Position numbers and translations under genes: made by a program
Shown here: positions 8,994 to 62,807 of the stretch, piece by piece
Position numbering within the stretch: the stretch's first letter is position 1
Layout: every line of letters begins with the position of its first letter
Notes under the pieces: model-generated
What the model was told of the DNA's origin: nothing
What the model saw: only the letters and a program-made list of their open reading frames with translations
Databases searched by the model: none
From: Naegleria gruberi
Taxonomy: Eukaryota
Length of the DNA: 64,000 nt
Assembly (NCBI GenBank): GCA_000004985.1
Contig: GG738875.1
Direction: 5' to 3' (one strand)

Positions 8994-11900
8994 ATGCCGC
9001 CACTCCTTTCCTTCCATTCTTCTTCCATTATTATCATCCTCATTCTCTTCATCAACAGCATTTTCTTCATTCACTCCTCATTGGCTTCATCTAAAACAAC
9101 AATTATAAAAACAACAGCAAATAATTACAATATTAAAATAGTGGCAGGAAGTTATGGCAATACCATTGATTCCTATCATTTTCCGATCATATCCGAGAGT
9201 CCAATTTATGTGCAATCATCCTCATCATCATCATCTGTGGTGGTGATGGAGAAGGAGGAGGATGATGGTGATGAAATAATATATTTATCAGATACACAGT
9301 TTTGTGTGGTGAGGAAAATTCAGAAAAGTTTGAGTGTTGTGGTGGCAGGAAATGGAATTTGTGCAGTTCCTGGAGAGACAAGTGGATTGGCTGTTGAATT
9401 TTCATTGACATCACCAGGTGGTGTTTATTTGGATGAATCTACTAATATATTATATATTTTGGATAATGGATTGAGTAATTCAGGAGGTTTTGTTAGAACT
9501 GTTGATATGTCAAGTGGAATGTTAAATACTTTGCAATTGACCTATGAACCTGCAGTGCTTATGTTAAAAAGTCCAACAATGATAACAAAGAATGGTGGAA
9601 TATTTTACATTGCTGATACTGGCAATAATGTTATTAGAAGTTTGACATTTACTGGACAAAATACTGCTCATTGTAAAGTAATTATTGGTGCAGTCAACCC
9701 TGACGTATCAATGAGTTGTGTTAATGTTGACCCATTGAGTTGTCAACTTTCTTCTCCAACAAGTATTACATTTTCATCTGATGGAATGATCATTACTGAC
9801 CAGCAAAACAGTAGATTTCTCGCTTTACAAAATGGAATTGTGTATCCATATTCTTTGGTAATACCAACTCCATTGCAAATAATGAGTTTGGGAAATGCTG
9901 AATATATAGTTTCGAATGGAGAAATATTGTATTCCCTCACACAAACCACAAAAAATGGTGCAGATTCAACTATTCTCCTGAAGGATAAAAGTTGGCCAAT
10001 TGGATATTTTGGAATTGATTCAGCACAAACTAATCTTTATTTCATGAGTCAATTGCCAAATTTAGCAGTATCACAAATTGTTAAATTCAACATTCAATCT
10101 CTTGGTCAGCCAACAGTCATTGGTGGTGCATATCCTTATACTTTGAGTCCAAACGTGCCTGCTTCTAGTTACTATTTTAATGGATTAACTCAATTAGAAT
10201 ATGTCAGTGATAGTGAAATTTATTTCGCATCCTATAATACAGATATTATCAAATTTGATATGACAGCAGGATTGGCCACAAGAATTGCTGGTAATATGAA
10301 TCAACCATCAGCGTTATCAAAAATTTCTAAAGGCCTATTAGTTGCAGATACTGTTAATAGGTTAATTAAACTTATTGATGGTGGTGGATCTGTCTCTACT
10401 GTAGCAGGTACAAATTCAAATGGAATAGGTTGTCCTGAAGGAGTTCAGGCTACTAGTTGTGAATTGAATTTACCCAGTGGTGTGGTAGGTACACCCTCAA
10501 TACTATCAAATCAATACATGTTTGTAATTGCTGACAGTAATGCTAATACTCTAAGGATGGTAGCTAATGATTTCACTGTTACAACATTAGCCAACTCTGT
10601 ATCAAATGTGAGATATCCAACGGGTTTATATTACACTGCTAATGGAGATTTATATTTTGCTAATACTGGAACTTCTCAAATAATGAAATTAGCTCATGAT
10701 AATACCATCGCAGTAATTGCAGGAACAGGAGAAAAAGGAAACAAAGGCGATGGTGGATTAGCTGTGAATGCTGCATTGAATTACCCAACACAGGTTACTG
10801 TCACTTCAAATGGAATATTGTATATAGCCGACACTGGCAACAATGCTATCAGAAAAATTGATTCCAATGGTATTATATCTACTGTTACACATAATGCTAT
10901 TCAAGGAATTAATGGTGTTGCCACGACTTCTGAGGGTGAACTACTATACGCTGATAGTTATACTGTAAGAATGATTCAATCGGTAGCATGTATTAATCCA
11001 CAAGGCCAAGTTTGTTCAAATCATGGGAAATGTGTGGATGGGCAATGTCTATGTGAAAGTGGATGGAGAGGTGATTCAGTGTGTGGAACTTTTTCATGTG
11101 ATATTCCAAAACCACCAAATGCACATAATTGTATTGGACCTAACCAGTATTCATGTATGAATGGTTGGTTTGGAGATTTGTGTAATTTACCAATTTGTTT
11201 TGGAATTCAATATAATAATTCAGCTGTTTGTAGCTCACATGGAAAATGTGTATCTAACAACACATGCAATTGTGAAAGTGGATGGAATGGAAATACAAAA
11301 TGTGGGACCTTTTCGTGTGACATTCCAAAACCACCAAACGCCTTTGAATGTATTGGACCTAATCAATATTCATGCATGACTGGTTGGTTTGGAAATTCTT
11401 GTGAACTACCAATTTGTTTTGGAATTCAATTTAATAATTCAGCTGTCTGTAGCTCACATGGACAATGTGTATCTAACAACACATGTATTTGTGAAAGTGG
11501 ATGGAGAGGTGATTCAGTGTGTGGAACTTTTTCATGTGATATTCCAAAACCACCAAACGGTCAGCAGTGTATTGGACCTAACCAGTATTCATGTATGAAT
11601 GGATGGTTTGGAGATTTGTGTAATTTACCAATGTGCTTTGGGATTCAATATAACAGCTCTTCTGTTTGTAGCTCACATGGAAAATGCATATCCAACAATA
11701 CATGCAATTGTGAAAGTGGATGGAATGGAAATAAGCAATGTGGGGCCTTTTCGTGTGACATTCCAAAACCACCAAACGCCTTTGAATGTATTGGACCTAA
11801 TCAATATTCATGTATGGATGGATGGTTTGGAGATTTGTGTACTTTTCCAATTTGTTTTGGAATTCAATTTAATAATTCAGCTGTTTGTAGCTCACATGGA

Positions 11901-40794: not shown

Positions 40795-41219
40795 TTGTTA
40801 GTTTACTTTTCGTATTATCCATGTTGGAAAATTCACCATTAGTGAATTTTATTGATGGTTTGATGATGATGATCATATAGATATTTACCTTAATGATCGG
40901 AAGTGAATTTGCTGGTGATCTTTATCATAAACGCTATTCCAAAATGATGATGAGTTCAGTGATGATGTAGAGGAGTGGAAAGTGAGTAGAGAGCAATCAT
41001 TTTGTTTCTACATTGCTGTTGTTGATTTTGTAGCAGTTGTTTATTGCTTCCCAAGGAAAAAATTGATCAATTATGGCTTAATTTTTGATTTTGCATGACC
41101 AATTTGATTGTAAGAAATATCAAGTGATGTTAATTGTTTCATTTCACTTATGAATTTGGCTCCTTCATTATCAATTTCATTGCTACTAATATTAAGTAAT
41201 GTTAATTGTTTCATTTCGC

Positions 41220-42029
41220 TTATAATTTTGATTTTGCATGACCAATTTGATTGTAAGAAATATCAAGTGATGTTAATTGTTTCATTTCACTTATGAATTT
41301 GGCTCCTTCATTATCAATTTCATTGCTACTAATATTAAGTAATGTTAATTGTTTCATTTCACTTATGAATTTGGCTCCTTCATCACCAATTTGATTGTTA
41401 GAAATATCAAGTGATGTTAATTGTTTCATTTCACTTATGAATTTGGCCCCTTCATCATCAATTTCATTGCTACTAATATTAAGTAATGTTAATTGTTTCA
41501 TTTCAGTTATGAATTTGGCTCCTTCAATACCAATTTGATTGTTAGAAATATCAAGTGATGTTAATTGTTTCATTTCAGTTATCGATTTAGCTCCTTCATC
41601 ACCAATTCGATTGCAACCTATATTAAGTGATGTTAATTGTTTCATTTCACTTATGAATTTGGTGTTTTCTATGTCACCAAGCAACCAACCAGAAAAATTA
41701 AGATTAACAATACTATTCACGAATTGACTTTTTCTGAATAGTTCAATTCTTTTCTCTGTAAACTTTTTTTTAAATTCAATTACAAGTTTTGAACGTTCCT
41801 TGATCACATTAAAGAATTGTTTTGAAATTAAAGAACAATTATTCAAAATAAACCATGAATCATCAATCATGGAAATTATTTCAAAGCAAACATCATCCGA
41901 AAATATTTCAATCTTCATCTCCATATTGTTATGATTGATCACAATTATTAATATTAATATTATTAGTATTCTTATATATTTGATATAGTTTGTTGTAACT
42001 TGTTTGTTCTTTGCTTTTCGACTTGACAC
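41220..42029 (-). CDS. F-box / leucine-rich-repeat protein (ribonuclease-inhibitor-type 24-aa LRRs), copy 1 with 7 LRR units.
   Basis: N-terminal F-box-like DDVCFEIISMIDDSWFILNNCSLISKQFFNVI. Tandem units EMKQLTSLDISNNQIGDEGAKFIS. The 72-bp DNA periodicity is visible at 41100-41650. Confidence 0.65.
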   Translation of the reverse strand: MSSRKAKNKQVTTNYIKYIRILIILILIIVINHNNMEMKIEIFSDDVCFEIISMIDDSWFILNNCSLISKQFFNVIKERSKLVIEFKKKFTEKRIELFRKSQFVNSIVNLNFSGWLLGDIENTKFISEMKQLTSLNIGCNRIGDEGAKSITEMKQLTSLDISNNQIGIEGAKFITEMKQLTLLNISSNEIDDEGAKFISEMKQLTSLDISNNQIGDEGAKFISEMKQLTLLNISSNEIDNEGAKFISEMKQLTSLDISYNQIGHAKSKL

Positions 42030-44919: not shown

Positions 44920-45246
44920 TGAATCCTTTGCTGATAAAGATCTTTCAATTTGTTAGATTATTGACTTTTCTAATTGTTGGTTTACTTTTCGTATTATCCA
45001 TGTTGGAAAATTCACCATTAGTGAATTTTATTGATGGTTTGATGATGATCATATAGATATTTACCTTAATGATCGGAAGTGAATTTGCTGGTGATCTTTA
45101 TCATAAACGCTATTCCAAAATGATGATGAGTTCAGTGATGATGTAGAGGAGTGGAAAGTGAGTAGAGAGCAATCATTTTGTTTCTACATTGCTGTTGTTG
45201 ATTTTGTAGCAGTTGTTTATTGCTTCCCAAGGAAAAAATTGATCAA

Positions 45247-46203
45247 TTATGGCTTAATTTTTGATTTTGCATGACCAATTTGATTGTAAGAAATATCAAG
45301 TGATGTTAATTGTTTCATTTCACTTATGAATTTGGCTCCTTCATTATCAATTTCATTGCTACTAATATTAAGTAATGTTAATTGTTTCATTTCACTTATG
45401 AATTTGGCTCCTTCATCACCAATTTGATTGTTAGAAATATCAAGTGATGTTAATTGTTTCATTTCACTTATGAATTTGGCCCCTTCATCATCAATTTCAT
45501 TGCTACTAATATTAAGTAATGTTAATTGTTTCATTTCACTTATGAATTTGGCTCCCTCAACACCAATTTCATTGCTACTAATATTAAGTAATGTTAATTG
45601 TTTCATTTCACTTATGAATTTGGCCCCTTCAACACCAATTTGATTGCTAGAAATTTTAATTGATGTTAATTGTTTCATTTCAGTTATGAATTTGGCTCCT
45701 TCAATACCAATTTGATTGTTAGAAATATCAAGTGATGTTAATTGTTTCATTTCAGTTATCGATTTAGCTCCTTCATCACCAATTCGATTGCAACCTATAT
45801 TAAGTGATGTTAATTGTTTCATTTCACTTATGAATTTGGTGTTTTCTATGTCACCAAGCAACCAACCAGAAAAATTAAGATTAACAATACTATTCACGAA
45901 TTGACTTTTTCTGAATAGTTCAATTCTTTTCTCTGTAAACTTTTTTTTAAATTCAATTACAAGTTTTGAACGTTCCTTGATCACATTAAAGAATTGTTTT
46001 GAAATTAAAGAACAATTATTCAAAATAAACCATGAATCATCAATCATGGAAATTATTTCAAAGCAAACATCATCCGAAAATATTTCAATCTTCATCTCCA
46101 TATTGTTATGATTGATCACAATTATTAATATTAATATTAGTATTCTTATATATTTGATATAGTTTGTTGTAACTTGTTTGTTCTTTGCTTTTCGACTTGA
46201 CAC
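45247..46203 (-). CDS. F-box / leucine-rich-repeat protein, copy 2 with 9 LRR units.
   Basis: Same as copy 1 with two extra 24-aa LRR units (318 vs 269 aa). Confidence 0.65.
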   Translation of the reverse strand: MSSRKAKNKQVTTNYIKYIRILILILIIVINHNNMEMKIEIFSDDVCFEIISMIDDSWFILNNCSLISKQFFNVIKERSKLVIEFKKKFTEKRIELFRKSQFVNSIVNLNFSGWLLGDIENTKFISEMKQLTSLNIGCNRIGDEGAKSITEMKQLTSLDISNNQIGIEGAKFITEMKQLTSIKISSNQIGVEGAKFISEMKQLTLLNISSNEIGVEGAKFISEMKQLTLLNISSNEIDDEGAKFISEMKQLTSLDISNNQIGDEGAKFISEMKQLTLLNISSNEIDNEGAKFISEMKQLTSLDISYNQIGHAKSKIKP

Positions 46204-50967: not shown

Positions 50968-51651
50968 TTAATAATAACGAGGTTGTTGATAGACAGGTGG
51001 TTGAGGAGGTTGATAAACACTTGTAGTTGGTTGACCAAAAGGTTGAGGTGGTGGCATGTTAGAATTATAAGAATTTGGTTGATAAACACTTGTAGTTGGT
51101 TGACCATAAGGTTGTGGATTATAAACTTGTGGTTGAGGTTGATAATAACTTGGTTGTTGTGATGGAATTGGTTGATAATAGGAAGGTTGTGGTTGTTGAT
51201 ATGTAATATTTTGTTGATAAGTAACTGTTTGTTGTTGTGGAGGTGGTTGATACATTGGTTGAGAATGGGTTGGAACTTGTTGATAAGTTGTAATAGATTG
51301 AGTTGGTTGTTGTTGATATTGGGTTGTTGTGACAGTAACAGTTTGATTTGGTTGGAGTGAGAATGAAGATGGATACATAACTCCACTCATTCCTCTAAAT
51401 CCACATTGTGACAATCCACCTGACATGACAAACAAGTAGGCATTGATAAATTCATCAAGAGTAATCACTCCATTTCTATCAGTATCCATCATAAAGAACA
51501 AGTGCTTGGATTGATGTTTGTGAACACCTAAACATCTCATGGCCAACTTGAAACTTCTCTTATTCAAATAGGTCAATCCCATAGAGTGTTGATAAAAGAG
51601 AGTTTGAGCTTGATTTACCCATGTTCCTCTATTAGAATGATAACTTGATGA
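50968..51651 (-). CDS. EF-hand protein with P/Q/Y-rich C-terminal tail. Possible additional 5' exon at 51808-52012.
   Basis: EF loop DTDRNGVITLDEF. C-terminal tail PQPSYYQP/QQPTTSVYQP repeats. The open frame continues upstream of the first Met to an AG at 51652-51653. Confidence 0.45.
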   Translation of the reverse strand, partial: SSSYHSNRGTWVNQAQTLFYQHSMGLTYLNKRSFKLAMRCLGVHKHQSKHLFFMMDTDRNGVITLDEFINAYLFVMSGGLSQCGFRGMSGVMYPSSFSLQPNQTVTVTTTQYQQQPTQSITTYQQVPTHSQPMYQPPPQQQTVTYQQNITYQQPQPSYYQPIPSQQPSYYQPQPQVYNPQPYGQPTTSVYQPNSYNSNMPPPQPFGQPTTSVYQPPQPPVYQQPRYY

Positions 51652-53237: not shown

Positions 53238-56048
53238 TTAAATTCTTTCTTCTTCTGTTCTATCCTCAATACCTGAATAGTCAACCGAATCAACAACTTC
53301 CTGCTCTTGGTGACCTTCCTGTTGTTCTTCATAGGTTTCATCCTCTGGATCTTGATTTTCATCGTGTTGTTCTTCAAAATCATTATCAAAATCCTCAAAC
53401 TCTTCCTCTTCCACTTCTTGGACAACTTGTTGTTGAGGTTGATATTCTTCCTGCTGTTGATCATCATAATAATTATTATTATTATCAGTATTATCCTGTG
53501 AAACATGAACCACTGAAAAATCTTCAGTTCTGAGAGTGTCTGATTGAGGAGCCTCAGAGGTGTCAAAATGAGAATTATCAAACTCTTCAAAATCGCCAAA
53601 AGATGTCTCAGTCTCTCCTGTTGTCTTGATTTCACTAACACCCAAAGAGGCACTAAGTGGGAGATATGCATCCGTTGCAGTCATTATCTCTATTGGATTC
53701 TGGTTGGCTTGAGTTTGGAACATTTGAGATGTATCATGTTGCGGTTCATAGTTTTGATTCTCATTTCCTTCATCATATTGTTTAAGGAAATCTTCTGCTG
53801 ATTGAGGTTGATTTGGAGCATATCCATTGGATTCTTCTTCTTCTTGTGTTTCTTCAACCTCAATAACTGGCGTTGGATCATGATCGCCATGGAATTGAGA
53901 AAATTGATAGCCTTGATCTTCTTCCTCTTCTTGTGTTTCCTCAACCTCAATAACTGGCTTGGTATTGATTTCCTTCTCTTTCTTCTCCTTCTTCTTTTCC
54001 TTTTTATCCTTTTTGTCCTTCTTGTCCTTCTTTTTCTTTTTTTCTTCTTCAGATGAAGATGAAGAGGAAGAGTCTGTACTCTCTTCGACCTCTTCAACTT
54101 TTCTTGGTGATGGTTTTTTCACACTAGACTCTATTATTGGAGATCTCTTTTGACTACTCTTAACGTCCTTCAAGGCTTGCATGCCGTTTTCCTTCTTGAT
54201 TTGATTGTAATTATCTCGTAAGAGTGTTATCAACTTGTTTTGATTCTTCCACAATTCCTTTTCTCTGAATGACATTCCTCTTGTATCAACTCTGGTCATT
54301 GAAGAAAAGAGTTTGTTTGGATTGTCAACAAACTCTTCCATAATAGCTTGATAACTTCTCTGTAAATTATTGTACCTGTCATTATTTTCCTTAATAGTTT
54401 TATACAGTTCTGAGGGTATGGTAATCATTTCCTCTGGTTCTTCCTCTTGTTTTTGGCTCTTTCTTGCCAAAAGTTTAAGTGTATCGGCTAGCTGAGGAAT
54501 GAGGCCACTCATTGTGGTTCCTTCTCTTTCATCATCCTCTTGTTGCTGATGTAAATTTTCCAAAACATGTCTAGCCAATTCCTCCTCCAACCGAACTGAC
54601 TTGTCCACTTTTTTTGAAGTTTTCATACTACTCGTTGCACTTGAGGGGGTTACAGTTTTTTTCTTTGATACAGAAGATTTCGTTGATGAGGAAGCAGATT
54701 GTGGTTTTCTTACTGTTGATGTTCCATGTAAGACATGATACCAATCCTTGGTTGGTTGTTCAAGGTAAGAGTTTGTATTTCTTCCAAGTGTTACGTTTTT
54801 CTTTCTCATACTCAATGAGTCAACTGTCTTTGTACTATTGCTTAGAGAACTGGGTCTGGAAGGGTTTGCTGATGAGGGCCTTTTAATTGGTTGCGTATTT
54901 AAAACCTTTCCTGATGAGGTAATTGATTTTTTCTTGACCTTCTTTTTCGTTTGTCTTTCCTCCACGAAACGTTGAGGCTCCCCTTTCAACTGTCTTGAAA
55001 TATCAGCCAGTTGATTTGCCATCGTATTGATTTGATTCTCTATTTGTCCTCTCATCATGATTGTTTGAGCCTGAGTATCCTTGTAGTGTTGTACAAGAGT
55101 AGACAGTGCTCCCATCTCTCCGTTTGCCATTGTACCTAGCATTGGATTGTATGTATTTTGTACAGGTTGATTTTGGAATGTGTTATCAGTTACAGTAAAC
55201 AGAGGATTTCTTGTGACAGCTCCTGTTTGCATTCTCAATGACTTGTCCATGGTACCAGAGTGTGGACCTCCATCAGTCATTGGTCTCTGTAATGAGAAAC
55301 TCTTGGAAAAGTTTTGAGTCAAGTATTCATTAAAATTATCTATTGGACCTGCCTTAACAAGTGACCTCAATCTCACATCCATATCAATCACTCCAACATC
55401 GTATCCTCTATCATTTTTAATTGTAAATGTTCCACTAATGGTACGTTTCTGTGGTATTCTTTCACCTTTTGGAGCATCAATTTCATCCGAAACTTTCAAT
55501 TCATTGAGAGGTATACTAACACTTCCTATAAGAACTGGTTTCCAATTACCACGACCCATATTAGGATCAGCCATACTTCCTCCGTATGTCATGTCAGTAG
55601 GTGAGGCTGTCAAAATGAATAAAAACACATAGAGGGGTAATGTTTGGATATATTGTCCCAATTCCATTCTTTCCATTGAAAATACTACACTTTTTCCTGT
55701 TCTAAATAACATATTATGTGATGAGACTTTTTCCTGATTCTTCATCATACCAGTTCCATAAAAACTTGTTTGCTTAAATCCTTCTTTAAACATTCTATTT
55801 TCTTGGGTGTCATCTCTTCCATAGGGACCCTCAGGTTTTTGAATGTACATTAGAGGAAACTCCCACAATCTGAATCCTATACAACTGTCATTGGAGAGGA
55901 GTGGATTTGTAGTTTTATAGATGAAATGAGAAACTTCGTGAATGTAGACATCAAGAGACCATAAACTGAGAATAGAGTATGTCACTTTAATTTTAAGTGA
56001 ACCTTGAAACTTACTTTGAGTCAACTTCTGATATTTCTTCCTCTTCAT
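53238..56048 (-). CDS. Large hypothetical protein with K/E-rich and acidic tandem-repeat C-terminus. Probably contiguous with ORF 56011-56412, with a frame change.
   Basis: 936-aa ORF. Repeat PVIEVEETQEEEE...x2. KKKKDKKDKKDKKEKKKEKKEKE. The upstream ORF overlaps by 38 nt in another frame. Confidence 0.45.
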   Translation of the reverse strand: MKRKKYQKLTQSKFQGSLKIKVTYSILSLWSLDVYIHEVSHFIYKTTNPLLSNDSCIGFRLWEFPLMYIQKPEGPYGRDDTQENRMFKEGFKQTSFYGTGMMKNQEKVSSHNMLFRTGKSVVFSMERMELGQYIQTLPLYVFLFILTASPTDMTYGGSMADPNMGRGNWKPVLIGSVSIPLNELKVSDEIDAPKGERIPQKRTISGTFTIKNDRGYDVGVIDMDVRLRSLVKAGPIDNFNEYLTQNFSKSFSLQRPMTDGGPHSGTMDKSLRMQTGAVTRNPLFTVTDNTFQNQPVQNTYNPMLGTMANGEMGALSTLVQHYKDTQAQTIMMRGQIENQINTMANQLADISRQLKGEPQRFVEERQTKKKVKKKSITSSGKVLNTQPIKRPSSANPSRPSSLSNSTKTVDSLSMRKKNVTLGRNTNSYLEQPTKDWYHVLHGTSTVRKPQSASSSTKSSVSKKKTVTPSSATSSMKTSKKVDKSVRLEEELARHVLENLHQQQEDDEREGTTMSGLIPQLADTLKLLARKSQKQEEEPEEMITIPSELYKTIKENNDRYNNLQRSYQAIMEEFVDNPNKLFSSMTRVDTRGMSFREKELWKNQNKLITLLRDNYNQIKKENGMQALKDVKSSQKRSPIIESSVKKPSPRKVEEVEESTDSSSSSSSEEEKKKKKDKKDKKDKKEKKKEKKEKEINTKPVIEVEETQEEEEDQGYQFSQFHGDHDPTPVIEVEETQEEEESNGYAPNQPQSAEDFLKQYDEGNENQNYEPQHDTSQMFQTQANQNPIEIMTATDAYLPLSASLGVSEIKTTGETETSFGDFEEFDNSHFDTSEAPQSDTLRTEDFSVVHVSQDNTDNNNNYYDDQQQEEYQPQQQVVQEVEEEEFEDFDNDFEEQHDENQDPEDETYEEQQEGHQEQEVVDSVDYSGIEDRTEEERI

Positions 56049-56412
56049 AGTAGTCGTTTTGAGAAGATAAAGATGAGGTGGATCGAGGTGAATCCTCCAC
56101 TAATTGTTGTTGAGAACGAGAAGTGTTTTTCATAGATGATGGTTTCCTTGAAGAGGATGATGAGCCAGCATCTTGTCTGTAATTTGATGAAGAAGGTTCA
56201 GGTTGTGTTTGATAATTCGTTCCAATAGTTGGCTGTGTTTTTTTCATCTTACTTTGATGAGGTTGATATTCATAGGGAACAGAATCCGATCCTTCTTTCC
56301 TACTTTTTGGTTGTTGTTTTGTATCAAATGACACCATTCCTCCAGTCCAACTCGATTGAGAGGTACTATGATCATTAGGGTATTTATGTATCGATACTTT
56401 AGAATTCATCAT
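56011..56412 (-). CDS. S/T-rich ORF, probable 5' part of the 53238-56048 gene.
   Basis: Same strand, overlapping ORF ends. Frame change implies a short intron or an indel. Confidence 0.3.
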   Translation of the reverse strand: MMNSKVSIHKYPNDHSTSQSSWTGGMVSFDTKQQPKSRKEGSDSVPYEYQPHQSKMKKTQPTIGTNYQTQPEPSSSNYRQDAGSSSSSRKPSSMKNTSRSQQQLVEDSPRSTSSLSSQNDYYEEEEISEVDSK

Positions 56413-56677
56413 TGAGCGTTTATACTATTTGAATATTATTTCAATAATGAAAAAATCTCTATAGCCCAGTAGTTGATGTACTTTTTTTTAATGTATTTTC
56501 TAAAATTAAGGCGGTAAAATTTAGGCGCCAAAAATAATGTTTTTCAACCTCAAAAAAAATATCTTCACATTGTCCACCCTGAAACATTTTTTCATATTCG
56601 ATCAAAAACAAGCCTCTTCGGAGTGTAAGATAACAATGAAGAATGAAATATTACAAACAAATTAATTTAATTTACAT

Positions 56678-58735
56678 TTAATGGAAAGCACCTCCATTAA
56701 CATTCAAAGTGTTACCACCCAAATTGTAAATGTAACCATACAAGTTGACATTGTTAAAGTTGAAAACACCCTTAGTCAAGACGTTACCATAGAATGGACC
56801 ATTAACAGCAACACTGTTACCAATAACCCAGAAAACATTGTTTTGAGTGGCACCATTGGTGAAAACAAAGTTGATATTGTTGGCATTCAAGTTGGTGCTC
56901 AACTTTAAGACAATCTTACCAGTACCAGAGAAGGTAACCTTGCTGTTACCATTCAAACCTTGTGGGAAACAGTAGACACCAGCAGTGAAAGTCAAACCAG
57001 CACTTGGAATGTTTTGATCCAAATTGCTTTGAGTACAAGTGGCAGCAAACAATTCATCATACTTGGCAATGGCATTTTCAATAACTTCAGCAGATTCACC
57101 ATTAGCAACATTGACAGCATAACCAGAGGCAGCAACGAGTTTTTGAACAGCAAAGGCTCTATCAGTGGCAACACTTCCTGGAACAGTCAATGAGGCAGAG
57201 TTTTGAACCAAGATGGATCCCTTTGAAATGACCTTGTATGGAGTCAAGATAGTACCAAAGGTAGTATCATAGTCACATGGCAAGACATTTGGAACGACAT
57301 ATGAGTCAGTAGTGAACTTCAAGTATGGAATTGTCTTATCTTCAAAGTATCCATCGAAAGTCAATTCAATAGTGAGAGCAGTGTAACCTTGAGCTGGATT
57401 TGGGAAGAAGACTTCATATTCGAATGGGTTTCCAGTAGCCTTTGGAGCAACAGTAACAGCAGTGAAAATTCTACCAATAGTGGTTTGTCTGAAATCTCTA
57501 CCATTTGGATTGTTGGCAGACCACAACTTGACAGCAGTAGGAACCTTACCATTCAAAATGTTCAACTTGACATTAACACCAGCAGCAGTGTAAGTGTGAG
57601 AGAAGGTATATTCAGGAAGTTCAATATTTTTCAAGACAGCATAGTAGAATGAGGCAACAGTCAAGACAACATCGGAACCAGTCATACCGTGACCAGTATT
57701 TGGAATATATCTCAAGTGCTTGTTCTTTCTATTTGGCATATCATTATAACTCAAAGTACTCATATCTGGCCAGAAGAATTCATCACCCATAGAGTTGACC
57801 ATATATTTTCTGTACTTGGCAAGATCTTCCTTCCATTCGAATGGATCAATAACTTCACAGAGCTTGGTAAAACCATAAGAGTTGACGTGTGGAGTGAAAC
57901 CAGCAGCAATATAATCATACATGGCAATTGGGAAGTCACAGAGAGAATTGTAAATGTGCTTGATAGCCTTTTGAGTATTTGGAATTTGAATAACGAGTGG
58001 AATGAGAGCCTTAACTCTTGGATCATTGGCAATACCAACTGTCCAAGTAGTCCAACCTCTCTTTGAGGCACCAGCAACAGTGAATTTTTCAATAGTGACA
58101 CCTGACACTTTGGTTGGCACAAAAGATTGAGTAGTATCCAATGCCAAGAGAGATGCCTTAGTCATAGGAAGTCTTGGAATCCACTTAACGTCCCTTGGGA
58201 AGTCGACTATATGCTTCCAAGCATATCCGATAATACCATCTTCAACTCTAACTTGATGCAATGGATCATTGGCATATGTCAATGGTTGATTAGGAATCAT
58301 CTTGACAGTGACACCAATAGTTTTACCAACAGTAGCCATAGCAATAGTGATTGGATCACCAGTTGGAAGACCATCAGTGGTATCTCCGTTAGTAATATAC
58401 ACAAAAGCTTCCTTTAAGCTTTTATCCAAATTGGTTGGAACAACAACTTCGAGATAGTGGAACCACAATGCACGATAACCAAATTCTTCTGGCAACCATT
58501 CAACTGAGGTCATATTAAGTACATATACAGTAGCACCAGTAACGGTGAATTCACTCAATAATTGATATGAATATTTTGGAGTTGGCTTATTTACATAGTC
58601 GGCCATAACTTTCTTATAGTCGATAATTTTGGTTGGGTCAGCAGCAATGTCAAATTGGTCTTCTGCATTGGAAAGGGCAGCAACAAGAGCCAAAATAACA
58701 GCCAACAAGACAATCAAGCTCTTTGAAAGCTTCAT
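56678..58735 (-). CDS. Secreted protein with signal peptide, large N-terminal domain (possibly PhoPQ-activated-pathogenicity-related-like) and C-terminal DUF3494 ice-binding-protein-like beta-helix domain.
   Basis: Signal peptide MKLSKSLIVLLAVILALVAALSNA. C-terminal LTFTAGVYCFPQGL...INFVFTNGATQNNVFWVIGNSVAVNG...GNVLTKGVFNFNNVNL matches the DUF3494 pattern (PGVY...AVFIFQ...NVFWQVGSSATLG...). Confidence 0.55.
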   Translation of the reverse strand: MKLSKSLIVLLAVILALVAALSNAEDQFDIAADPTKIIDYKKVMADYVNKPTPKYSYQLLSEFTVTGATVYVLNMTSVEWLPEEFGYRALWFHYLEVVVPTNLDKSLKEAFVYITNGDTTDGLPTGDPITIAMATVGKTIGVTVKMIPNQPLTYANDPLHQVRVEDGIIGYAWKHIVDFPRDVKWIPRLPMTKASLLALDTTQSFVPTKVSGVTIEKFTVAGASKRGWTTWTVGIANDPRVKALIPLVIQIPNTQKAIKHIYNSLCDFPIAMYDYIAAGFTPHVNSYGFTKLCEVIDPFEWKEDLAKYRKYMVNSMGDEFFWPDMSTLSYNDMPNRKNKHLRYIPNTGHGMTGSDVVLTVASFYYAVLKNIELPEYTFSHTYTAAGVNVKLNILNGKVPTAVKLWSANNPNGRDFRQTTIGRIFTAVTVAPKATGNPFEYEVFFPNPAQGYTALTIELTFDGYFEDKTIPYLKFTTDSYVVPNVLPCDYDTTFGTILTPYKVISKGSILVQNSASLTVPGSVATDRAFAVQKLVAASGYAVNVANGESAEVIENAIAKYDELFAATCTQSNLDQNIPSAGLTFTAGVYCFPQGLNGNSKVTFSGTGKIVLKLSTNLNANNINFVFTNGATQNNVFWVIGNSVAVNGPFYGNVLTKGVFNFNNVNLYGYIYNLGGNTLNVNGGAFH

Positions 58736-59458
58736 TTGTTATGTGTGGATAGTTGAGTTGTTTTTTTTTGTTATGTTGATTGTTGAGGAGCAATTGACTG
58801 GGTTTTTAAATCTTTGATTGCGCAACTCCAGATTGTGAGACACAGTATTGCGCAAAAATAAATAGTATTGTAAAGTGTGAAATGTAACTTACACAACACT
58901 TTAGACTGCAAACTTCCCTTTTTATCGTTTGCCAAAATTGTGACCAGTTGGTAATTTATAGAAGTGATGTGTAAAATGAAAGTGCTACCTTACCCTATGA
59001 ATGTAAAGAGCGCTATGGTTTTTTGAATTAAATGTAATCTTTGGACAACACTTGGCATGTTTGTAATCTTCAAACCAGATCGAGAATTTCTTCTACTTCG
59101 TATTAGAGAAGGAAATTGAACTGTGTGCCGACTTCAATGTGTCATTGTGTTGAAAATAAATACCAAATGTTGAAGTGTCAACTGATTATTTGAACAAGAA
59201 TGGTTTACAGCTTATTGTAGTGGAGCGATTTAATGGTTTTTGATTGACTAAGAGGGTTAGAAAATTGTTTATGGAACTCTACAGCCATTTCCTAAAGATC
59301 GTTACTAAAGTGTTGGACATGTCTTAGTGCTTTCAGTGAACTGAAGGTGTGGTTAAGGTTATGATTGTAATAATATTGTGGTCAACTGTTTATCCACAAC
59401 AACCGTAGATGCTCAAACAAAATCCAACATAAATGAAGTATGGTTGGCTTTTCAATTA

Positions 59459-60955
59459 TTACCAGAACACATTGAAGTATGGTTCGATTTCATGTTCATA
59501 AAGAAGATCATCATCTTGTTCAATTTTCACAAAGGCAAAACAATTCACCTCCACAATGTGATCCTTGGCTTGCTCTTCATTGTCAACCTGGTAAACTACT
59601 TGATCGCAAACATTGCAAAATCTATTACTATTTTTGTAAACTTGTAGAGATTCAAATTTGAGAGGACATTTGTAGATACATTCGCATTGATTGACTAAAT
59701 TCCATTCATACTCTTTAATTCTGTAATATTTCTTTCGTTCTTTTGAAATATTAATAGTAGGATTATGTATTTTGATGTGATTGATTCTTCTTCTAAGAAC
59801 GCAAAGCCAATTCTTGATATTTAGGTTGTTTCCATTAAAGTTTGGAAAATAAAAACAAACTAATGGTTTCCAAATTTCCAATTGAACTCTTTCAAATGCT
59901 GAACTTTCTTCATTGACGATAGAGGTGATGTTATCGACAACATGACAAAGGGCTCCAGAATTATCTGATTGTGGATCTATTCTTCTATTGAAGAATAGAC
60001 TCAATAATGATTGGTTTACCCATCGCAAATCTATTCAATTCTGATAAATTCAGAAACTTCCAATCAGTATTAGAATCTCAGATGGCAATTCATAGATAGT
60101 AAATTGTGAAATAGATTCTCCAGTACCCAAATCCACATTAATACTACAAATATTCATTAATCCATTTAAAATACTGTGTGGAATAGATGCTGAATTGGGA
60201 ATATCCAATTCTAATCCAATACTTGCCACATTATCCATTGCTTCCTGAACTAACTTATTCAATTCGGGTGTGGTCGTTAAATTCATTAATTTCATATATG
60301 AACGGTTCCAAACCACAGGTGAATTCTCATAGTAATTCAACACCTTCAATCCATATTCAATTACTGGCATCATGTCTAACATTTCCAATAAATCAGCTTG
60401 CATTTTTCCAATTTTCTCTCCCTCACTCAAAATTAAACAATCTCTACAAGATTCCACCTGTCCCACTATTGTTCGAAACACAACTCCCAATTGTTGAAAC
60501 ATTGGAGCAAGTATAGGAACTGGAATGGTGGCGGTGAATCCACTTCTGATGTAAATATTGCGTGGAGATCTTTCTCCAATTTTTGCCCTTGTTTCAAATT
60601 TGAAAGATTGAATTTGTTCAATCAATTCTTCAATTTCTGATGAATTTGTAAAGATTAGTCCAACATTTCCATTCAAATATTCGCAAATTTTGAGTAATGA
60701 CTCTGGATTGTGTTTCCTCTCCGAGGGTTTCACATTAAATTGAATGTCCTGAGCCAAGTTTCGAATAGCACTCTTGATCAATGTATTCTTTCCTTTCAAT
60801 AATATTGCTCTTCCTCTCAATTTCATTCGAATTATTTGCAATTGATCCGATTTCATACGAGTATCTATTTCAACAATAATTACATTCGAATGATCATGAA
60901 AATGTTGAATGACATCCTCGAATTTTACACTATTTTCATCATCATTCATTTTCAC
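59459..60955 (-). pseudogene. P0/Mrt4 (uL10)-like domain + F-box + Cys-rich C-terminal domain protein, disrupted copy. ORFs 60050-60955 and 59459-60028 are separated by a compensating -1/+1 indel pair with two in-frame TGA codons.
   Basis: Colinear with the intact paralog 61274-62689. Relative to it, ...agtttc-tgaattt... lacks a T and ...gggtaaaccaatca... has one extra base. Between the two, the frame reads F*IYQN*. Confidence 0.55.
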
Positions 60956-61273
60956 TTATTATTGATTTTAAAAATATGATGAACGTGCAATTGGTTCCAA
61001 GAGTGAGTTGCCGTATTTTTTTTTAATTTTACAGTAAATTTCAGAATTTACTTTTTTAAAGAGCAATTACAATCTTTGTAATGTGTTAATGAGATTAAAA
61101 TATTCAGATATTTATTAAGGTTCAATGAGATTCTCTTTACAATTTGCACAGAGTTTATTGTGGGTGCTGGTTTAATGTCTGGTTTCACACTTGGTTTACT
61201 TTCCATTGACATACAATGCATTGGATATTCTCAAATCGACTGAAAAGGAGTGAAAGGTTGCTGCTCGTTTGGC

Positions 61274-62689
61274 TCATTCATCCCAATAAATAATTCCCAT
61301 AGCTAAATCATCATCGTATTCATCCCCTCCTTCCACAAAAGCAATGCAATTTCCCTTAATGATATGATGTTTGGCTTGTTCTTCACTACCAACTTGGTAA
61401 ACTATCTTGTTGCAGACATTACACATTCTACTGGAAGAGGTGTGAAGTGGAAGAGAATCGTATTTGAGAGGACATTTGTAGATCCATTCACATTGGTTGA
61501 TGAGATTCCATTCGTAACTCTTAATTGCAAAAGATTCGTTTCTTGCTGATGCAAGGTTGACTGAAGGCATGTGTAGCTTGATATGGTCAATTCTTCTTCT
61601 GAGAACGTGGAGCCAATTCTTGATATTTAAATTATTTTTCCTAAAGTTAGGGAAGTAGAAACAAACTAATGGTTTCCAAATTTCCAATTGAACTCGTGTA
61701 AATAGTTCACTCTCTTCATTTATCATAGCAATTGAATTCTTGAGTGATTTCTCAATTGAATGAGATTGTGAAATAATTCTTCTATTGAAGAATAGACTCA
61801 ATAATGATTGATTACCCATCGCAAATCTATTCAATTCTGATAAATTCAAGAAACTTGCAATTAATATCAAAATTTCAGATGGTAATTCATTTACAGTAAA
61901 TTGTTGAATGGAATTAATTGTTCTCAGTTCTACCAAAACTCGACCGACATTCAATAATCCATTGAAAAGACTATGTGGAATAGATGCTGAATTCGGAATA
62001 TCCAATTCTAATCCAATACTTGCCACATTATCTACTGCTTCCTGAATTATACTATTCAAATTTAGAGATGCTCTCAGGTTTTCATATGTTTGATTCCAAA
62101 CCACGTGTGAATTTTCATAGGAAGCTACCACTTTCAGTCCGTATGCAATCATCGGTTCCATCTTCAACAATTCCAAAAAATCTGCCTTTTCCTTTGTAAT
62201 TTTCTCTCCAGCTCTCAAAAGTAAAAAATCTGTCGATGCATATACATCCTGTTGAGCTATGTCTCCAACCTTTGCCTTTGCTTCAAATTTGAAAGATTGA
62301 ATTTGTTCAATCAATTCTTCAATTTCTGTTGAATTTGTAAAGATTAGTCCAACATTTCCTCTCAAATATTCGCAAATTTGATAAAGAACTTCTGGATTGT
62401 GCTTCCACTCTGATGGTTTCACATTAAATTGAATATCCTGAGCCAAGTTTCGAATAGCACTTCTGATCAATGTATTCTTTCCCACCAATAATTCGGCCTT
62501 CTCTCTCAATTTCATTCGAACTATTTGTAACTGATCCGATTTCATTCGAGGATGTATTTTAATAATAATTACATTCGAATGATCATGAAAATGTTGAATG
62601 ACCTTCTCGAATTTTGCACATTTATGAGAGAGACCCTTCTTTTCGGAATGAAATTGTTGTTTTGAAGCTGATTCGTCCAAGTTTTTCAT
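61274..62689 (-). CDS. Ribosomal P0/Mrt4 (uL10)-like domain fused to an F-box and a Cys-rich C-terminal domain (intact paralog).
   Basis: QLQIVRMKLREKAELLVGKNTLIRSAIR, LRGNVGLIFTNSTEIEELIEQIQSFKF and LLRAGEKITKEKADFLELL match uL10/P0/Mrt4 conserved blocks. F-box-like LPSEILILIASFLNLSELNRFAMGNQS. C-terminal CPLKYDSL...CNVCNKIVYQV. Confidence 0.6.
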   Translation of the reverse strand: MKNLDESASKQQFHSEKKGLSHKCAKFEKVIQHFHDHSNVIIIKIHPRMKSDQLQIVRMKLREKAELLVGKNTLIRSAIRNLAQDIQFNVKPSEWKHNPEVLYQICEYLRGNVGLIFTNSTEIEELIEQIQSFKFEAKAKVGDIAQQDVYASTDFLLLRAGEKITKEKADFLELLKMEPMIAYGLKVVASYENSHVVWNQTYENLRASLNLNSIIQEAVDNVASIGLELDIPNSASIPHSLFNGLLNVGRVLVELRTINSIQQFTVNELPSEILILIASFLNLSELNRFAMGNQSLLSLFFNRRIISQSHSIEKSLKNSIAMINEESELFTRVQLEIWKPLVCFYFPNFRKNNLNIKNWLHVLRRRIDHIKLHMPSVNLASARNESFAIKSYEWNLINQCEWIYKCPLKYDSLPLHTSSSRMCNVCNKIVYQVGSEEQAKHHIIKGNCIAFVEGGDEYDDDLAMGIIYWDE

Positions 62690-62807
62690 TCCAACTCAAC
62701 CTCTGAAGGAATATCAATGCATTTCCAGCTGGTTCAGTAACCTTTCTAGTCATCAACTCCATTCGAGAATCGTAAAATATCGTCGATCCACCCTCAAACT
62801 CTCCATC

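What the first reader, a model, noticed from the sequence alone, without database searches (positions are those of the whole stretch)
56678..58735. Secreted protein ending in a DUF3494 ice-binding-protein-like beta-helix, a candidate horizontally acquired module
The last ~200 aa contain the hallmark DUF3494/IBP-1 blocks: AGVY, I(N/A)FVF, NVFW(V/Q)(I/V)G(N/S)S, and repeated short beta-strand triplets ending in ...LNVNGGAFH. This fold is known from bacterial, fungal, diatom and other microbial ice-binding or adhesin proteins. It is patchily distributed in eukaryotes, a pattern attributed to horizontal transfer. Here it is fused to a large N-terminal domain, possibly of the PhoPQ-activated pathogenicity-related type, behind a signal peptide. 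The gene lies next to a P/Q-rich EF-hand gene and a discoidin-like gene, so the locus may form a secreted or adhesive cluster.
Basis: partly seen in the sequence, partly recalled or inferred. Interest (0 to 1): 0.65.

Follow-up and report, generated by a model that had tools for sequence, protein, structure and literature searches.

The report
Amoeba hydrolase fused to ice-binding-like domain
This is a real, intact Naegleria gruberi gene for a secreted serine-hydrolase-type protein that has picked up a C-terminal "ice-binding-like" beta-helix domain, copied from a family of such domains already spread through the amoeba's own surface proteins rather than freshly imported from bacteria.

Summary
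Window 56678-58735 (-) is one uninterrupted 685-aa ORF, identical to Naegleria gruberi XP_002675978.1 (NAEGRDRAFT_49989, "predicted protein").

It has three parts:
- A signal-peptide-like N-terminus.
- A full-length PhoPQ_related / MEROPS S82 alpha/beta-hydrolase domain (Pfam E=4e-94), with invariant Ser224, Asp318 and His349.
- A divergent but genuine DUF3494 domain at aa ~495-685. Pfam gives 41.9 bits against a cut-off of 28.7. The AlphaFold model's 31 best PDB matches are all DUF3494 ice-binding proteins.

- The closest relatives of the C-terminal domain (38-47% identity) are DUF3494-like modules in other N. gruberi proteins of EGF/REJ and cadherin/VWA type, and in metagenomic proteins. One of the metagenomic proteins is a subtilase fusion. 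Prokaryotic homologues reach about 32% at most.
- Codon usage is the same in both halves of the gene.
- The N. fowleri and N. lovaniensis homologues stop exactly where the extra domain begins.

So the fusion arose by domain shuffling within the N. gruberi lineage, not by recent transfer. An older prokaryotic origin of the whole family stays open. The neighbouring genes are not secreted or adhesive.

The domain most likely acts as a binding or targeting module; this is inferred. Ice binding is untested.

The parts
56678..58735 (-). Complete single-exon coding sequence, 685 codons plus a TAA stop at 56678-56680. It is identical to N. gruberi XP_002675978.1 / NAEGRDRAFT_49989 / UniProt D2VJ80.
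   Evidence: ORF list. 685/685 identity to P0121. The same gene is present in an independent contig that is 98.8% identical (L001), with 5 nucleotide and 2 amino-acid differences.
58664..58735 (-). Signal-peptide-like N-terminus, aa 1-24 (MKLSKSLIVLLAVILALVAALSNA), with likely cleavage after SNA.
   Evidence: Read directly from the sequence. It is the only strongly hydrophobic 15-residue window in the protein (Kyte-Doolittle 3.4). The N. lovaniensis homologue P0004 has an equivalent N-terminus. No SignalP-type tool was run.
57488..58603 (-). PhoPQ_related (PF10142, MEROPS S82) alpha/beta-hydrolase domain, aa 45-416.
58064..58066 (-). Ser224 in the motif GASKRGW: candidate catalytic nucleophile.
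   Evidence: G222, S224, K225, R226, G227 and W228 are invariant in 66 homologues. In the model Ser224 sits between strand 217-223 and helix 225-235, the nucleophile-elbow position.
57782..57784 (-). Asp318 in GDEFF: candidate catalytic acid.
   Evidence: Invariant in 66 homologues. It follows strand 309-315 in the model. D324 is also invariant and is an alternative.
57689..57691 (-). His349 in NTGHG: candidate catalytic base.
   Evidence: Invariant in 66 homologues. It follows strand 339-344 in the model.
57293..57610 (-). All-beta sub-domain, aa ~376-481, that ends the ancestral PhoPQ-related protein.
   Evidence: Strands 376-382, 386-393, 401-409, 425-428, 439-445, 451-460 and 472-481 in the model. 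Bacterial and Naegleria homologues cover the query up to about here.
57254..57292 (-). Fusion junction, aa 482-494 (PNVLPCDYDTTFG). The N. fowleri, N. lovaniensis and metagenomic homologues terminate within or just after the LPC.Y motif.
   Evidence: P0002 ends ...FPCKY, P0003 ends ...VPNVLPCSYNKLKQNNP and P0004 ends ...TPCEISPTNLPSHQLV. tblastn finds no DUF3494 sequence in the stretch held downstream of the N. lovaniensis gene, about 2.5 kb to the contig end.
56681..57253 (-). DUF3494 / Ice_binding-like beta-helix domain of the Naegleria subtype, aa 495-685. It runs to the last residue of the protein.
   Evidence: Pfam PF11999 at 41.9 bits. It aligns end to end with 40 DUF3494 proteins. The model shows short strands plus one long helix at aa 546-563, and its 31 best PDB hits are all DUF3494 IBPs. 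An HMM of the Naegleria subtype matches aa 495-685.
56969..57037 (-). Stretch holding the conserved Cys567 ... Cys589 pair (AATC ... GVYCF), the best-conserved DUF3494 core motif.
   Evidence: Both cysteine columns are 97% conserved in 40 DUF3494 homologues and are present here. GVYCF, NVFW, G639, S641, F648 and G650 are also retained. Overall 26 of 71 highly conserved columns are shared.

Best explanation
Shown:
- The locus is an ordinary, intact, single-exon Naegleria gruberi gene.
- The protein has a secretory N-terminus, a complete PhoPQ-related (MEROPS S82) alpha/beta-hydrolase with an invariant Ser224-Asp318-His349 set in canonical topological positions, a beta sub-domain, and a C-terminal DUF3494 beta-helix.
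- The DUF3494 part belongs to a Naegleria-type subfamily that also occurs inside at least four other large N. gruberi proteins: EGF+PKD/REJ, Big_9/cadherin+VWA, and two giant multi-copy proteins. It also occurs behind a subtilase in a metagenomic relative.
- The homologous hydrolases of N. fowleri and N. lovaniensis end exactly where the extra domain starts.
- Both halves of the gene share one strongly biased codon usage.

Inferred, origin:
- The gene arose in the N. gruberi lineage when a copy of an already resident DUF3494 module was joined to the 3' end of a native secreted hydrolase gene. This was domain shuffling, not a fresh transfer.

Inferred, mechanism:
- The protein enters the secretory or endolysosomal route.
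- The N-terminal domain acts as a serine hydrolase (esterase or peptidase; substrate unknown).
- The C-terminal beta-helix acts as a non-catalytic binding or targeting module. It would hold the enzyme on a surface such as prey bacteria, the cell coat or extracellular matrix, or the cyst wall, much as a carbohydrate-binding module serves a glycoside hydrolase.
- Ice binding is neither required nor shown.
For: Domain calls and folds: DUF3494; alpha/beta-hydrolase with invariant S224, D318, H349.

Identity with N. gruberi XP_002675978.1.

Independent 98.8%-identical contig with the same intact fusion and only 5 differences in 2055 coding bases.

Paralogous origin of the C-terminal domain:
- An exhaustive phmmer search puts N. 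gruberi proteins NAEGRDRAFT_61915 (E 3.5e-37, 45% identity) and 72752 (5e-32, 45%) on top, together with metagenomic P0125 and P0126. N. gruberi 51207 and 76139 also appear. The best prokaryote-type hits have E>=1e-14.
- Their architectures (EGF/REJ, Big_9/cadherin/VWA, Peptidase_S8) are.
- The four Naegleria-type domains group together in the NJ tree.

Fusion specific to N. gruberi:
- None of the other 119 listed N-terminal homologues carries PF11999, and none of the 157 C-terminal-type proteins matches the hydrolase HMM.
- N. lovaniensis locus L002 has no DUF3494 sequence in the held downstream stretch.
- Homologue C-termini stop at the LPC.Y motif.

Native composition: RSCU r=0.91 between the halves, Nc 31.4 and 30.3, GC3 0.34 and 0.37.

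Binding-module reading:
- The same module sits behind two unrelated catalytic domains (S82 hydrolase here, S8 subtilase in P0126) and inside adhesion-type repeat proteins.
- Bacterial DUF3494 domains are likewise combined with adhesion and tether domains (PMC9957290).
- S82 relatives in Dictyostelium are secreted proteins: AprA, and the 'PhoPQ' protein of multilamellar bodies (PMC4920372, PMC11878206).
Against: - No experiment or expression data bear on secretion, catalysis or ligand.
- The nucleophile motif G-A-S-K-R-G is not a textbook G-x-S-x-G, and triad geometry could not be inspected.
- Fold matches do not separate esterase from peptidase.
- The binding-module role rests only on domain architecture.
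- Bootstrap support for the Naegleria-type clade is moderate: 89 and 121 of 200 in two runs.
- I could not search the N. fowleri or N. lovaniensis genomes for DUF3494 domains elsewhere. The age of the family in Naegleria, and whether the 46%-identical proteins are strict orthologues, remain uncertain. The N. lovaniensis neighbours differ from those in the window.
- All characterised DUF3494 proteins bind ice, so ice binding cannot be excluded.
Confidence: 0.6

Rival explanations
1. The C-terminal domain is a working ice-binding module. The protein would be secreted by a soil or freshwater amoeba to modify ice (recrystallisation inhibition) or to hold the enzyme or cell at ice surfaces during freeze-thaw, as in other DUF3494 proteins.
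For: It is a member of PF11999 above the gathering score. Its predicted fold matches only solved ice-binding proteins. Every DUF3494 protein with a solved structure in these lists is an ice-binding protein. A secretory N-terminus fits an extracellular role.
Against: - The N. gruberi laboratory strains come from temperate soil and grow at mesophilic temperatures (my own knowledge). Authors in the field report no DUF3494 homologues in mesophilic algae and tie eukaryotic IBPs to icy habitats (PMC6892780, PMC10796529).
- The domain is very divergent: it shares 26 of 71 conserved columns and keeps 3 of 12 conserved Thr columns.
- It is Thr-poor (7.9% against 13.8 +/- 2.4%) and Asn-rich.
- The same module sits inside cadherin/VWA, EGF/REJ and subtilase proteins, which looks like a general extracellular module.
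- None of this is decisive, because ice-binding sites have no sequence signature.
Confidence: 0.15
2. One reading: the DUF3494 part of this gene was acquired directly by horizontal transfer from a bacterium, or from a fungus or alga, and landed behind the hydrolase gene.
For: DUF3494 is overwhelmingly prokaryotic and patchy in eukaryotes, and transfer is the accepted explanation in algae, fungi and rotifers (papers listed). The domain is absent from the homologous N. fowleri and N. lovaniensis proteins.
Against: - The closest relatives are other N. gruberi genes at 45-47% identity. Prokaryotic hits reach about 32% at most, and solved fungal and diatom IBPs score only E 4e-6 to 2e-5.
- Codon usage, GC3 and Nc match the native N-terminal half.
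- Domain boundaries coincide with those of the paralogues, which all start at Y-x-(I/V)-I-S-K-G.
Confidence: 0.05
3. The beta-helix is not a ligand-binding module. It would instead be a structural or processing appendage: an oligomerisation or spacer domain, or a C-terminal pro-domain removed during maturation. Such extensions are seen on many secreted hydrolases, including subtilases.
For: It sits at the extreme C-terminus of two different secreted-type hydrolases, this gene and the P0126/P0128 subtilase. The family has no conserved functional site.
Against: In NAEGRDRAFT_61915 and 72752 the module is internal, and in 51207 and 76139 it is repeated, within long extracellular repeat proteins. 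That does not suit a removable pro-domain. The coding sequence is more conserved between the two alleles (0.24% difference) than the surrounding 9.2 kb (1.16%), although there are too few changes to judge each domain separately.
Confidence: 0.15
4. The fusion is an artefact: two adjacent genes joined by an assembly or annotation error.
For: The architecture is unique among all homologues retrieved.
Against: One continuous ORF without stop or frame change. An independently assembled contig from another sample carries the same ORF. Codon usage is uniform across the junction. The junction lies in well-aligned sequence.
Confidence: 0.02

Closest known systems
Single-domain DUF3494 (IBP-1 fold) ice-binding proteins with solved structures: ColAFP 3wp9, FfIBP 4nu2, AnpIBP 7bwx, FcIBP 6a8k, TisAFP 3vn3/5b5h, LeIBP 3uyu
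   Same: Same Pfam family (PF11999). Same predicted fold, a beta-helix with one long flanking helix, at TM 0.62-0.78. Same core motifs: the Cys pair, GVYCF and NVFW.
   Different: Sequence identity is only 14-22%. The loops are shorter. Most conserved Thr columns are lost and the domain is Asn-rich. It is not a stand-alone protein but the C-terminal third of a hydrolase. The host is, to my knowledge, a mesophilic amoeba. No ice-binding activity is known.
Multi-domain bacterial DUF3494 proteins, e.g. Shewanella frigidimarina SfIBP_1 (6bg8, a proposed ice adhesin with tandem beta-sandwich domains), and the DUF3494+REJ, Big and thrombospondin architectures of Arctic metagenomes
   Same: DUF3494 used as one module of a secreted or surface multi-domain protein. 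The N. gruberi paralogues combine it with REJ, Big_9/cadherin and VWA domains, much like the bacterial architectures listed in PMC9957290.
   Different: Those are prokaryotic and come from ice habitats. Here the partner is an S82 alpha/beta-hydrolase, a combination not seen in any other retrieved protein.
PhoPQ-activated pathogenicity-related / MEROPS S82 proteins: bacterial PqaA-type proteins, Dictyostelium AprA, and the multilamellar-body 'PhoPQ' protein DDB_G0276897
   Same: Full-length PF10142 domain, secretory N-terminus and an amoebal secreted context.
   Different: All others retrieved are about 420-560 aa without DUF3494, or carry other additions such as PKD or RCC1. The biochemical activity of the family is barely characterised (PMC11878206). 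No evidence links this protein to AprA-like signalling.
Catalytic domain plus non-catalytic binding module enzymes, e.g. carbohydrate esterases with carbohydrate-binding modules. CE7 acetyl xylan esterases are the best structural matches of the N-terminal domain.
   Different: This is a similarity of fold and architecture only, at 10-16% identity. DUF3494 is not a recognised carbohydrate-binding module, and no substrate is known.
N. gruberi paralogous modules in NAEGRDRAFT_61915, 72752, 51207 and 76139
   Same: Same Naegleria-type DUF3494 subfamily. Identity is 45-47% for 61915 and 72752. They share boundaries and signature motifs: PGS(V/I)A, DQ.IPS.GL, GVYCFPQGL.G, TNGA..NVFW.
   Different: Those are large EGF/REJ, cadherin/VWA or multi-copy proteins of 1082-4968 aa. 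Only this gene couples the module to a hydrolase.

Membership tests
DUF3494 / Ice_binding (PF11999) | Match to the family HMM above the curated gathering score | tested here: met
   41.9 bits against a cut-off of 28.7, E=1.2e-10, aa 503-662, profile positions 15-185 of 208.
DUF3494 / Ice_binding (PF11999) | IBP-1 fold: beta-helix with a long alpha-helix packed alongside | tested here: met
   Template-free AlphaFold2 model, pLDDT 83.9, with helix 67-84 of the 206-aa segment and about 20 short strands. The 31 best Foldseek PDB hits are all DUF3494 IBPs at TM 0.62-0.78, and the next hit has E>1. Caveat: the input alignment consisted of DUF3494 homologues.
DUF3494 / Ice_binding (PF11999) | Conserved core motifs (Cys pair, GVYCF, NVFW..G.S, F.G) | tested here: met
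   All are present (C567, 586-GVYCF-590, 633-NVFW-636, G639, S641, F648, G650). Overall only 26 of 71 columns that are at least 80% conserved are shared.
Functional ice-binding proteins (IBP/AFP) | Demonstrated adsorption to ice: thermal hysteresis, recrystallisation inhibition or ice shaping | not testable with these tools
   Needs recombinant protein. Sequence composition (Thr 7.9% against 13.8% in homologues) is only a weak hint against.
Functional ice-binding proteins (IBP/AFP) | Host lives in an ice-associated habitat, the usual correlate for eukaryotic DUF3494 genes | tested here: not met
   The host is identified as N. gruberi. That it is a temperate-soil mesophile is my own knowledge. 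The literature states that mesophilic algae lack the domain.
PhoPQ_related (PF10142) / MEROPS S82 | Full-length match to the family HMM | tested here: met
   315.8 bits against a cut-off of 20.3, E=4e-94, profile positions 2-367 of 367. 477 homologues have E<=1e-3.
PhoPQ_related (PF10142) / MEROPS S82 | Alpha/beta-hydrolase fold with a Ser-Asp-His catalytic set | tested here: met
PhoPQ_related (PF10142) / MEROPS S82 | Hydrolase (peptidase or esterase) activity | not testable with these tools
   The family is described as barely characterised in PMC11878206.
Horizontally acquired eukaryotic DUF3494 genes (as in algae, fungi, rotifers) | Nearest relatives are prokaryotic rather than from the same genome or lineage | tested here: not met
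   The top hits are N. gruberi paralogues and Naegleria-type metagenomic proteins. Prokaryote-type hits are at least 12 orders of magnitude weaker in E-value.
Horizontally acquired eukaryotic DUF3494 genes (as in algae, fungi, rotifers) | Composition or codon usage deviating from the host | tested here: not met
   The C-terminal and N-terminal halves give RSCU r=0.91, Nc 30.3 and 31.4, and GC3 0.37 and 0.34. RSCU correlation with the pooled window ORFs is 0.77-0.82, within the range of 0.56-0.96 seen for other ORFs.
Horizontally acquired eukaryotic DUF3494 genes (as in algae, fungi, rotifers) | Family absent from sister lineages (other Naegleria species, other Heterolobosea) | not tested
   Only the homologous hydrolase genes could be examined, and they lack the domain. 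No eukaryotic genome collection was searchable. Metagenome scans found nothing.
   The neighbours are MAP10_N-like and two Ribosomal_L10/Mrt4-like plus F-box-like genes. The EF-hand ORF is 5 kb away with sub-threshold hits. No discoidin hit appears in any ORF of at least 200 aa.

The most novel reading that the evidence does not exclude
In Naegleria the DUF3494 beta-helix may have been adopted as a general-purpose extracellular binding module with a non-ice ligand, such as glycan, a bacterial surface or matrix. It has been shuffled among hydrolases (S82 esterase/peptidase, S8 subtilase) and giant adhesin-like proteins (EGF/REJ, cadherin/VWA). If so, a mesophilic eukaryote would show that 'ice binding' is only one use of this fold. 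This hydrolase fusion would be a tractable small protein for finding the other ligand.
Probability: 0.4. Interest if true: 0.55.

Novelty: new variant of a known kind. Interest (0 to 1): 0.35.

Why it matters
Both domains belong to known families, and the protein is already in public databases as an uncharacterised 'predicted protein', so nothing here is categorically new. Two points are of modest interest.

First, the domain combination (S82 alpha/beta-hydrolase plus DUF3494) was not found in any other protein among the several hundred homologues retrieved from collections of billions of sequences.

Second, a non-polar amoeba carries a small family of divergent DUF3494 modules: at least 9 copies in 5 genes, as a lower bound. 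They are embedded in extracellular-type proteins. This runs against the usual picture that eukaryotic DUF3494 genes are recent bacterial imports confined to ice-associated species. I found no paper mentioning DUF3494 or ice binding together with Naegleria.

If the domain binds something other than ice, annotation pipelines that label every PF11999 hit 'ice-binding' would need tempering. The finding also shows that a patchily distributed domain in a eukaryote can reflect in-genome shuffling rather than a fresh transfer at that locus.

Tried and rejected
1. A word-index search with the C-terminal domain alone found nothing, not even the protein itself. With a profile of Naegleria-type domains it returned only short prokaryote-type DUF3494 proteins. 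It was useless for taxonomy but supplied the alignment used for structure prediction.

2. A mixed alignment of the full-length protein with N-terminal and C-terminal homologues mis-aligned the C-terminal homologues onto the hydrolase. I dropped it and modelled the two parts separately, so I have no model of how the domains pack.

I replaced it with a numpy NJ implementation. Only NJ with Kimura distances was possible, and the deep branching is unresolved.

4. Metagenome scans for more Naegleria-type domains or further fusions failed:
- The single-protein scan gave no relatives.
- The back-translated GVYCFPQGL pattern gave two chance matches, one in a bacterial glycosyltransferase locus.

5. 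The AlphaFold-database fold library was not available.

6. The PDB sequence search with the N-terminal domain found nothing. Fold searches were needed instead.

7. pN/pS between the two alleles rests on only 5 differences, so it says nothing about either domain separately.

8. Considered and rejected: recent transfer of a ready-made bacterial fusion gene, since no bacterial homologue has both domains; an assembly artefact; and a co-functional gene cluster.
Full report
**What is at the coordinates**

One search lists one ORF at 56678..58735 on the minus strand: 685 aa, ATG start, with the stop codon at 56678-56680. The DNA shows no interruption. The protein is identical over all 685 residues to Naegleria gruberi XP_002675978.1 (NAEGRDRAFT_49989, UniProt D2VJ80), which is annotated only as 'predicted protein'. 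The window is therefore N. gruberi nuclear DNA. This fits its 30-37% G+C and its gene content: actin, RasGEF/DOCK, receptor-kinase-like, LRR, ankyrin/F-box and Ras genes.

An independently assembled ENA contig, L001 (run ERR1078381), is 98.8% identical over 9.2 kb. It carries the same gene with 5 nucleotide and 2 amino-acid differences, A426D and F658V. The fusion is therefore not an assembly artefact.

**Checking the observation**

Pfam gives two matches:
- PF10142 PhoPQ_related, aa 45-416, E=4e-94, covering the whole profile.
- PF11999 Ice_binding, aa 503-662, E=1.2e-10, 41.9 bits against a gathering score of 28.7.

A sequence search of aa 480-685 against PDB finds only ice-binding proteins: 3wp9 at 3e-7, 7bwx at 4e-6 and 6a8k at 2e-5.

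Aligned with 40 DUF3494 proteins, the segment matches from its first strand to its last residue. It keeps the Cys567/Cys589 pair, GVYCF, NVFW, G639, S641, F648 and G650, but shares only 26 of the 71 most conserved columns.

A template-free AlphaFold2 model (pLDDT 83.9, pTM 0.84) shows one long helix and about twenty short strands. Its 31 best Foldseek matches in PDB are all DUF3494 ice-binding proteins (TM 0.62-0.78), and the next hit has E>1.

The N-terminus has the form of a cleavable signal peptide and is the only strongly hydrophobic stretch in the protein.

**The N-terminal two thirds**

Aligned with 65 homologues, the invariant residues are G222, S224, K225, R226, G227, W228, D318, D324, H349 and about 35 others.

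The model (pLDDT 93.4) is an alpha/beta-hydrolase followed by an all-beta sub-domain at aa ~376-481. Ser224 lies between a strand and a helix, the nucleophile-elbow position. Asp318 and His349 lie after the next-to-last and last core strands.

The fold matches are:
- Foldseek: best matches are CE7 acetyl xylan esterases and cephalosporin C deacetylase, at E about 1e-10.

No PDB entry is related by sequence.

The literature equates PF10142 with MEROPS family S82 and calls it barely characterised (PMC11878206). In Dictyostelium its members include the secreted proliferation repressor and chemorepellent AprA, and a major protein of secreted multilamellar bodies (PMC4920372). AprA was noted for predicted structural similarity to DPPIV (PMC8326840). 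The N-terminal part is therefore very likely an active secreted serine hydrolase of unknown substrate.

**Where the C-terminal domain came from**

*Architecture.* Of the 120 best homologues of the whole protein, only the protein itself carries PF11999. None of the 157 proteins matching the DUF3494 models matches a hydrolase HMM, apart from the two alleles of this gene. The architecture is unique in everything retrieved.

*Closest homologues of the hydrolase.* These are from N. fowleri (46% identity, 461 aa), N. lovaniensis (43%, 496 aa) and a metagenomic relative (46%, 423 aa). All three end within or just after the motif (V/T/L)P(N/Q)..PC.(Y/I). In N. gruberi the reading frame continues past this motif into the beta-helix. 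The N. lovaniensis locus has no DUF3494-like sequence in the roughly 2.5 kb held downstream of the gene, up to the contig end. Its neighbours differ from those in the window, so strict orthology is not proven.

*Closest homologues of the domain.* An exhaustive phmmer search of aa 480-685 against 1.84 billion representatives gave 118 hits. The best were:

| Hit | Identity of hit | Architecture | E-value | Identity |
|---|---|---|---|---|
| P0122 | N. gruberi NAEGRDRAFT_61915 | EGF + PKD/REJ | 3.5e-37 | 45% |
| P0124 | N. gruberi NAEGRDRAFT_72752 | Big_9/cadherin repeats + VWA | 5e-32 | 45% |
| P0125 | metagenomic | no Pfam family | 1.6e-26 | 40% |
| P0126 + P0128 | metagenomic, one gene split in two on one contig | S8 subtilase followed by the same kind of domain | 2.0e-25 (P0126), 3.9e-14 (P0128) | 40% (P0126), 56% (P0128) |

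- N. gruberi NAEGRDRAFT_51207 (four copies) and NAEGRDRAFT_76139 (two copies) also appear.
- The best prokaryote-type single domains score E>=1e-14 and about 32% identity at most. They include Nitrosotalea and Nitrosotenuis 'ice-binding family' proteins.

*Tree.* In an NJ tree of 147 domains, the query groups with P0122, P0124 and P0125. Bootstrap support for this group was 89 and 121 of 200 in two runs. Its sister group alternates between the other N. gruberi copies and some unnamed metagenomic proteins. The deep origin is unresolved.

*Boundaries.* All Naegleria-type copies start at the same Y-x-(I/V)-I-S-K-G strand.

*Composition.* The two halves of the gene have the same strongly biased codon usage: Nc 31.4 and 30.3, RSCU r=0.91, GC3 0.34 and 0.37. 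RSCU correlation with the pooled window ORFs is 0.77-0.82, within the range shown by other genes.

*Conclusion on origin.* The N-terminal half is clearly a Naegleria gene, and the C-terminal half shares its composition. The simplest reading is that a resident DUF3494 module was joined to the 3' end of a native hydrolase gene in the N. gruberi lineage. A recent transfer into this locus is not supported. Whether the founding copy of the family came from prokaryotes long ago remains open.

**Surroundings**

- Downstream on the same strand, at 53238-56412, lies a Ser/Glu-rich protein with a MAP10_N match.
- Upstream lie two tandem genes with a Ribosomal_L10/Mrt4-like N-terminus and an F-box-like motif.
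- The weak EF-hand ORF is 5 kb away at 50968-51582.
- No ORF of at least 200 aa has a discoidin match.

There is no secreted or adhesive cluster.

**How it most likely works**

*Shown:* the anatomy, the fold assignments, the conserved catalytic candidates and the paralogous origin of the C-terminal domain.

*Inferred:* the protein enters the secretory or endolysosomal pathway. The S82 domain hydrolyses an ester or peptide substrate. The beta-helix is a non-catalytic binding or targeting module.

The argument for a binding role is architectural:
- The same module follows two unrelated catalytic domains, S82 here and S8 in P0126.
- It is embedded, once or repeatedly, in long proteins built from adhesion-type repeats.
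- Bacterial DUF3494 domains are likewise combined with tether and adhesion domains (PMC9957290).

Ice binding remains possible, but nothing beyond family membership favours it:
- To my knowledge the host is a temperate mesophile.
- The field reports no such genes in mesophilic algae.
- The domain has lost most conserved Thr columns and is Thr-poor and Asn-rich.

These are weak arguments, because ice-binding faces have no sequence signature.

**Comparison with what is known, and novelty**

The protein is a member of both PF10142 and PF11999 by every computational criterion I could test. It cannot be called an ice-binding protein without an assay. It resembles multi-domain bacterial DUF3494 proteins in using the domain as a module. 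It resembles enzymes carrying carbohydrate-binding modules in overall logic.

It differs from all retrieved proteins in its particular domain pair, and from the usual eukaryotic DUF3494 genes in its host ecology and in its mode of origin at this locus. No paper in the searchable library links DUF3494 or ice binding with Naegleria.

I rate it a new variant of a known kind, of modest interest.

Noticed in passing
window 59459-60955 (-) and 61274-62689 (-): Tandem paralogous genes with an unusual build: a Ribosomal_L10/Mrt4-like N-terminal domain, an F-box-like motif and a Cys-rich C-terminal region. In the window the proximal copy is interrupted near 60028-60052 by a short out-of-frame stretch with two stops, associated with a TTT/TTTT homopolymer difference. 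The 98.8%-identical contig L001 has an intact 496-aa ORF there. This is either a sequencing error or a strain-specific disruption.
   Followed up: partly
window 41220-42029 (-) and 45247-46203 (-): Two closely related leucine-rich-repeat genes about 4 kb apart. Identical weak tblastn matches at 41015-41137 and 45191-45313 point to a local segmental duplication.
   Followed up: no
window 57299-58735 (N-terminal domain); proteins P0005-P0120: After the Naegleria homologues, the best matches of the hydrolase domain are bacterial (Verrucomicrobia, Acidobacteria, Hydrogenedentes and others, 35-38% identity), plus one 813-aa protein annotated from the mussel Dreissena polymorpha (34%). No Dictyostelium protein appears among the 120 listed. 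The hydrolase gene itself may have a bacterial history in Naegleria, and the mussel entry may be contamination or a transfer.
   Followed up: no
proteins P0126 and P0128 (same 5284-bp JGI contig): An S8 subtilase is followed by the first half of a Naegleria-type DUF3494 domain, and the second half is called as a separate 71-aa protein. This is probably one eukaryotic gene split by an intron or a frameshift. It is a second, independent hydrolase-DUF3494 fusion.
   Followed up: partly
locus L001 (ENA ERZ929261 / ERR1078381, PRJEB11402), equivalent to window 53483-62697: A contig labelled as metagenomic is 98.8% identical to this N. gruberi region, with 73 mismatches and 13 gaps in 9.2 kb. That sample therefore contains a second N. 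gruberi strain or allele.
   Followed up: partly
window 56678-58735: The gene has one of the strongest codon biases in the window (Nc 31, against 34-50 for nearly all other ORFs) and somewhat higher GC3. This suggests high expression. No expression data were available to check.
   Followed up: no
window 8994-13865 (+): A 1623-aa ORF combines NHL and teneurin-like EGF repeats with a C-terminal protein kinase domain, a receptor-kinase-like architecture. The EGF type is the same as in the DUF3494-bearing paralogue NAEGRDRAFT_61915.
   Followed up: no
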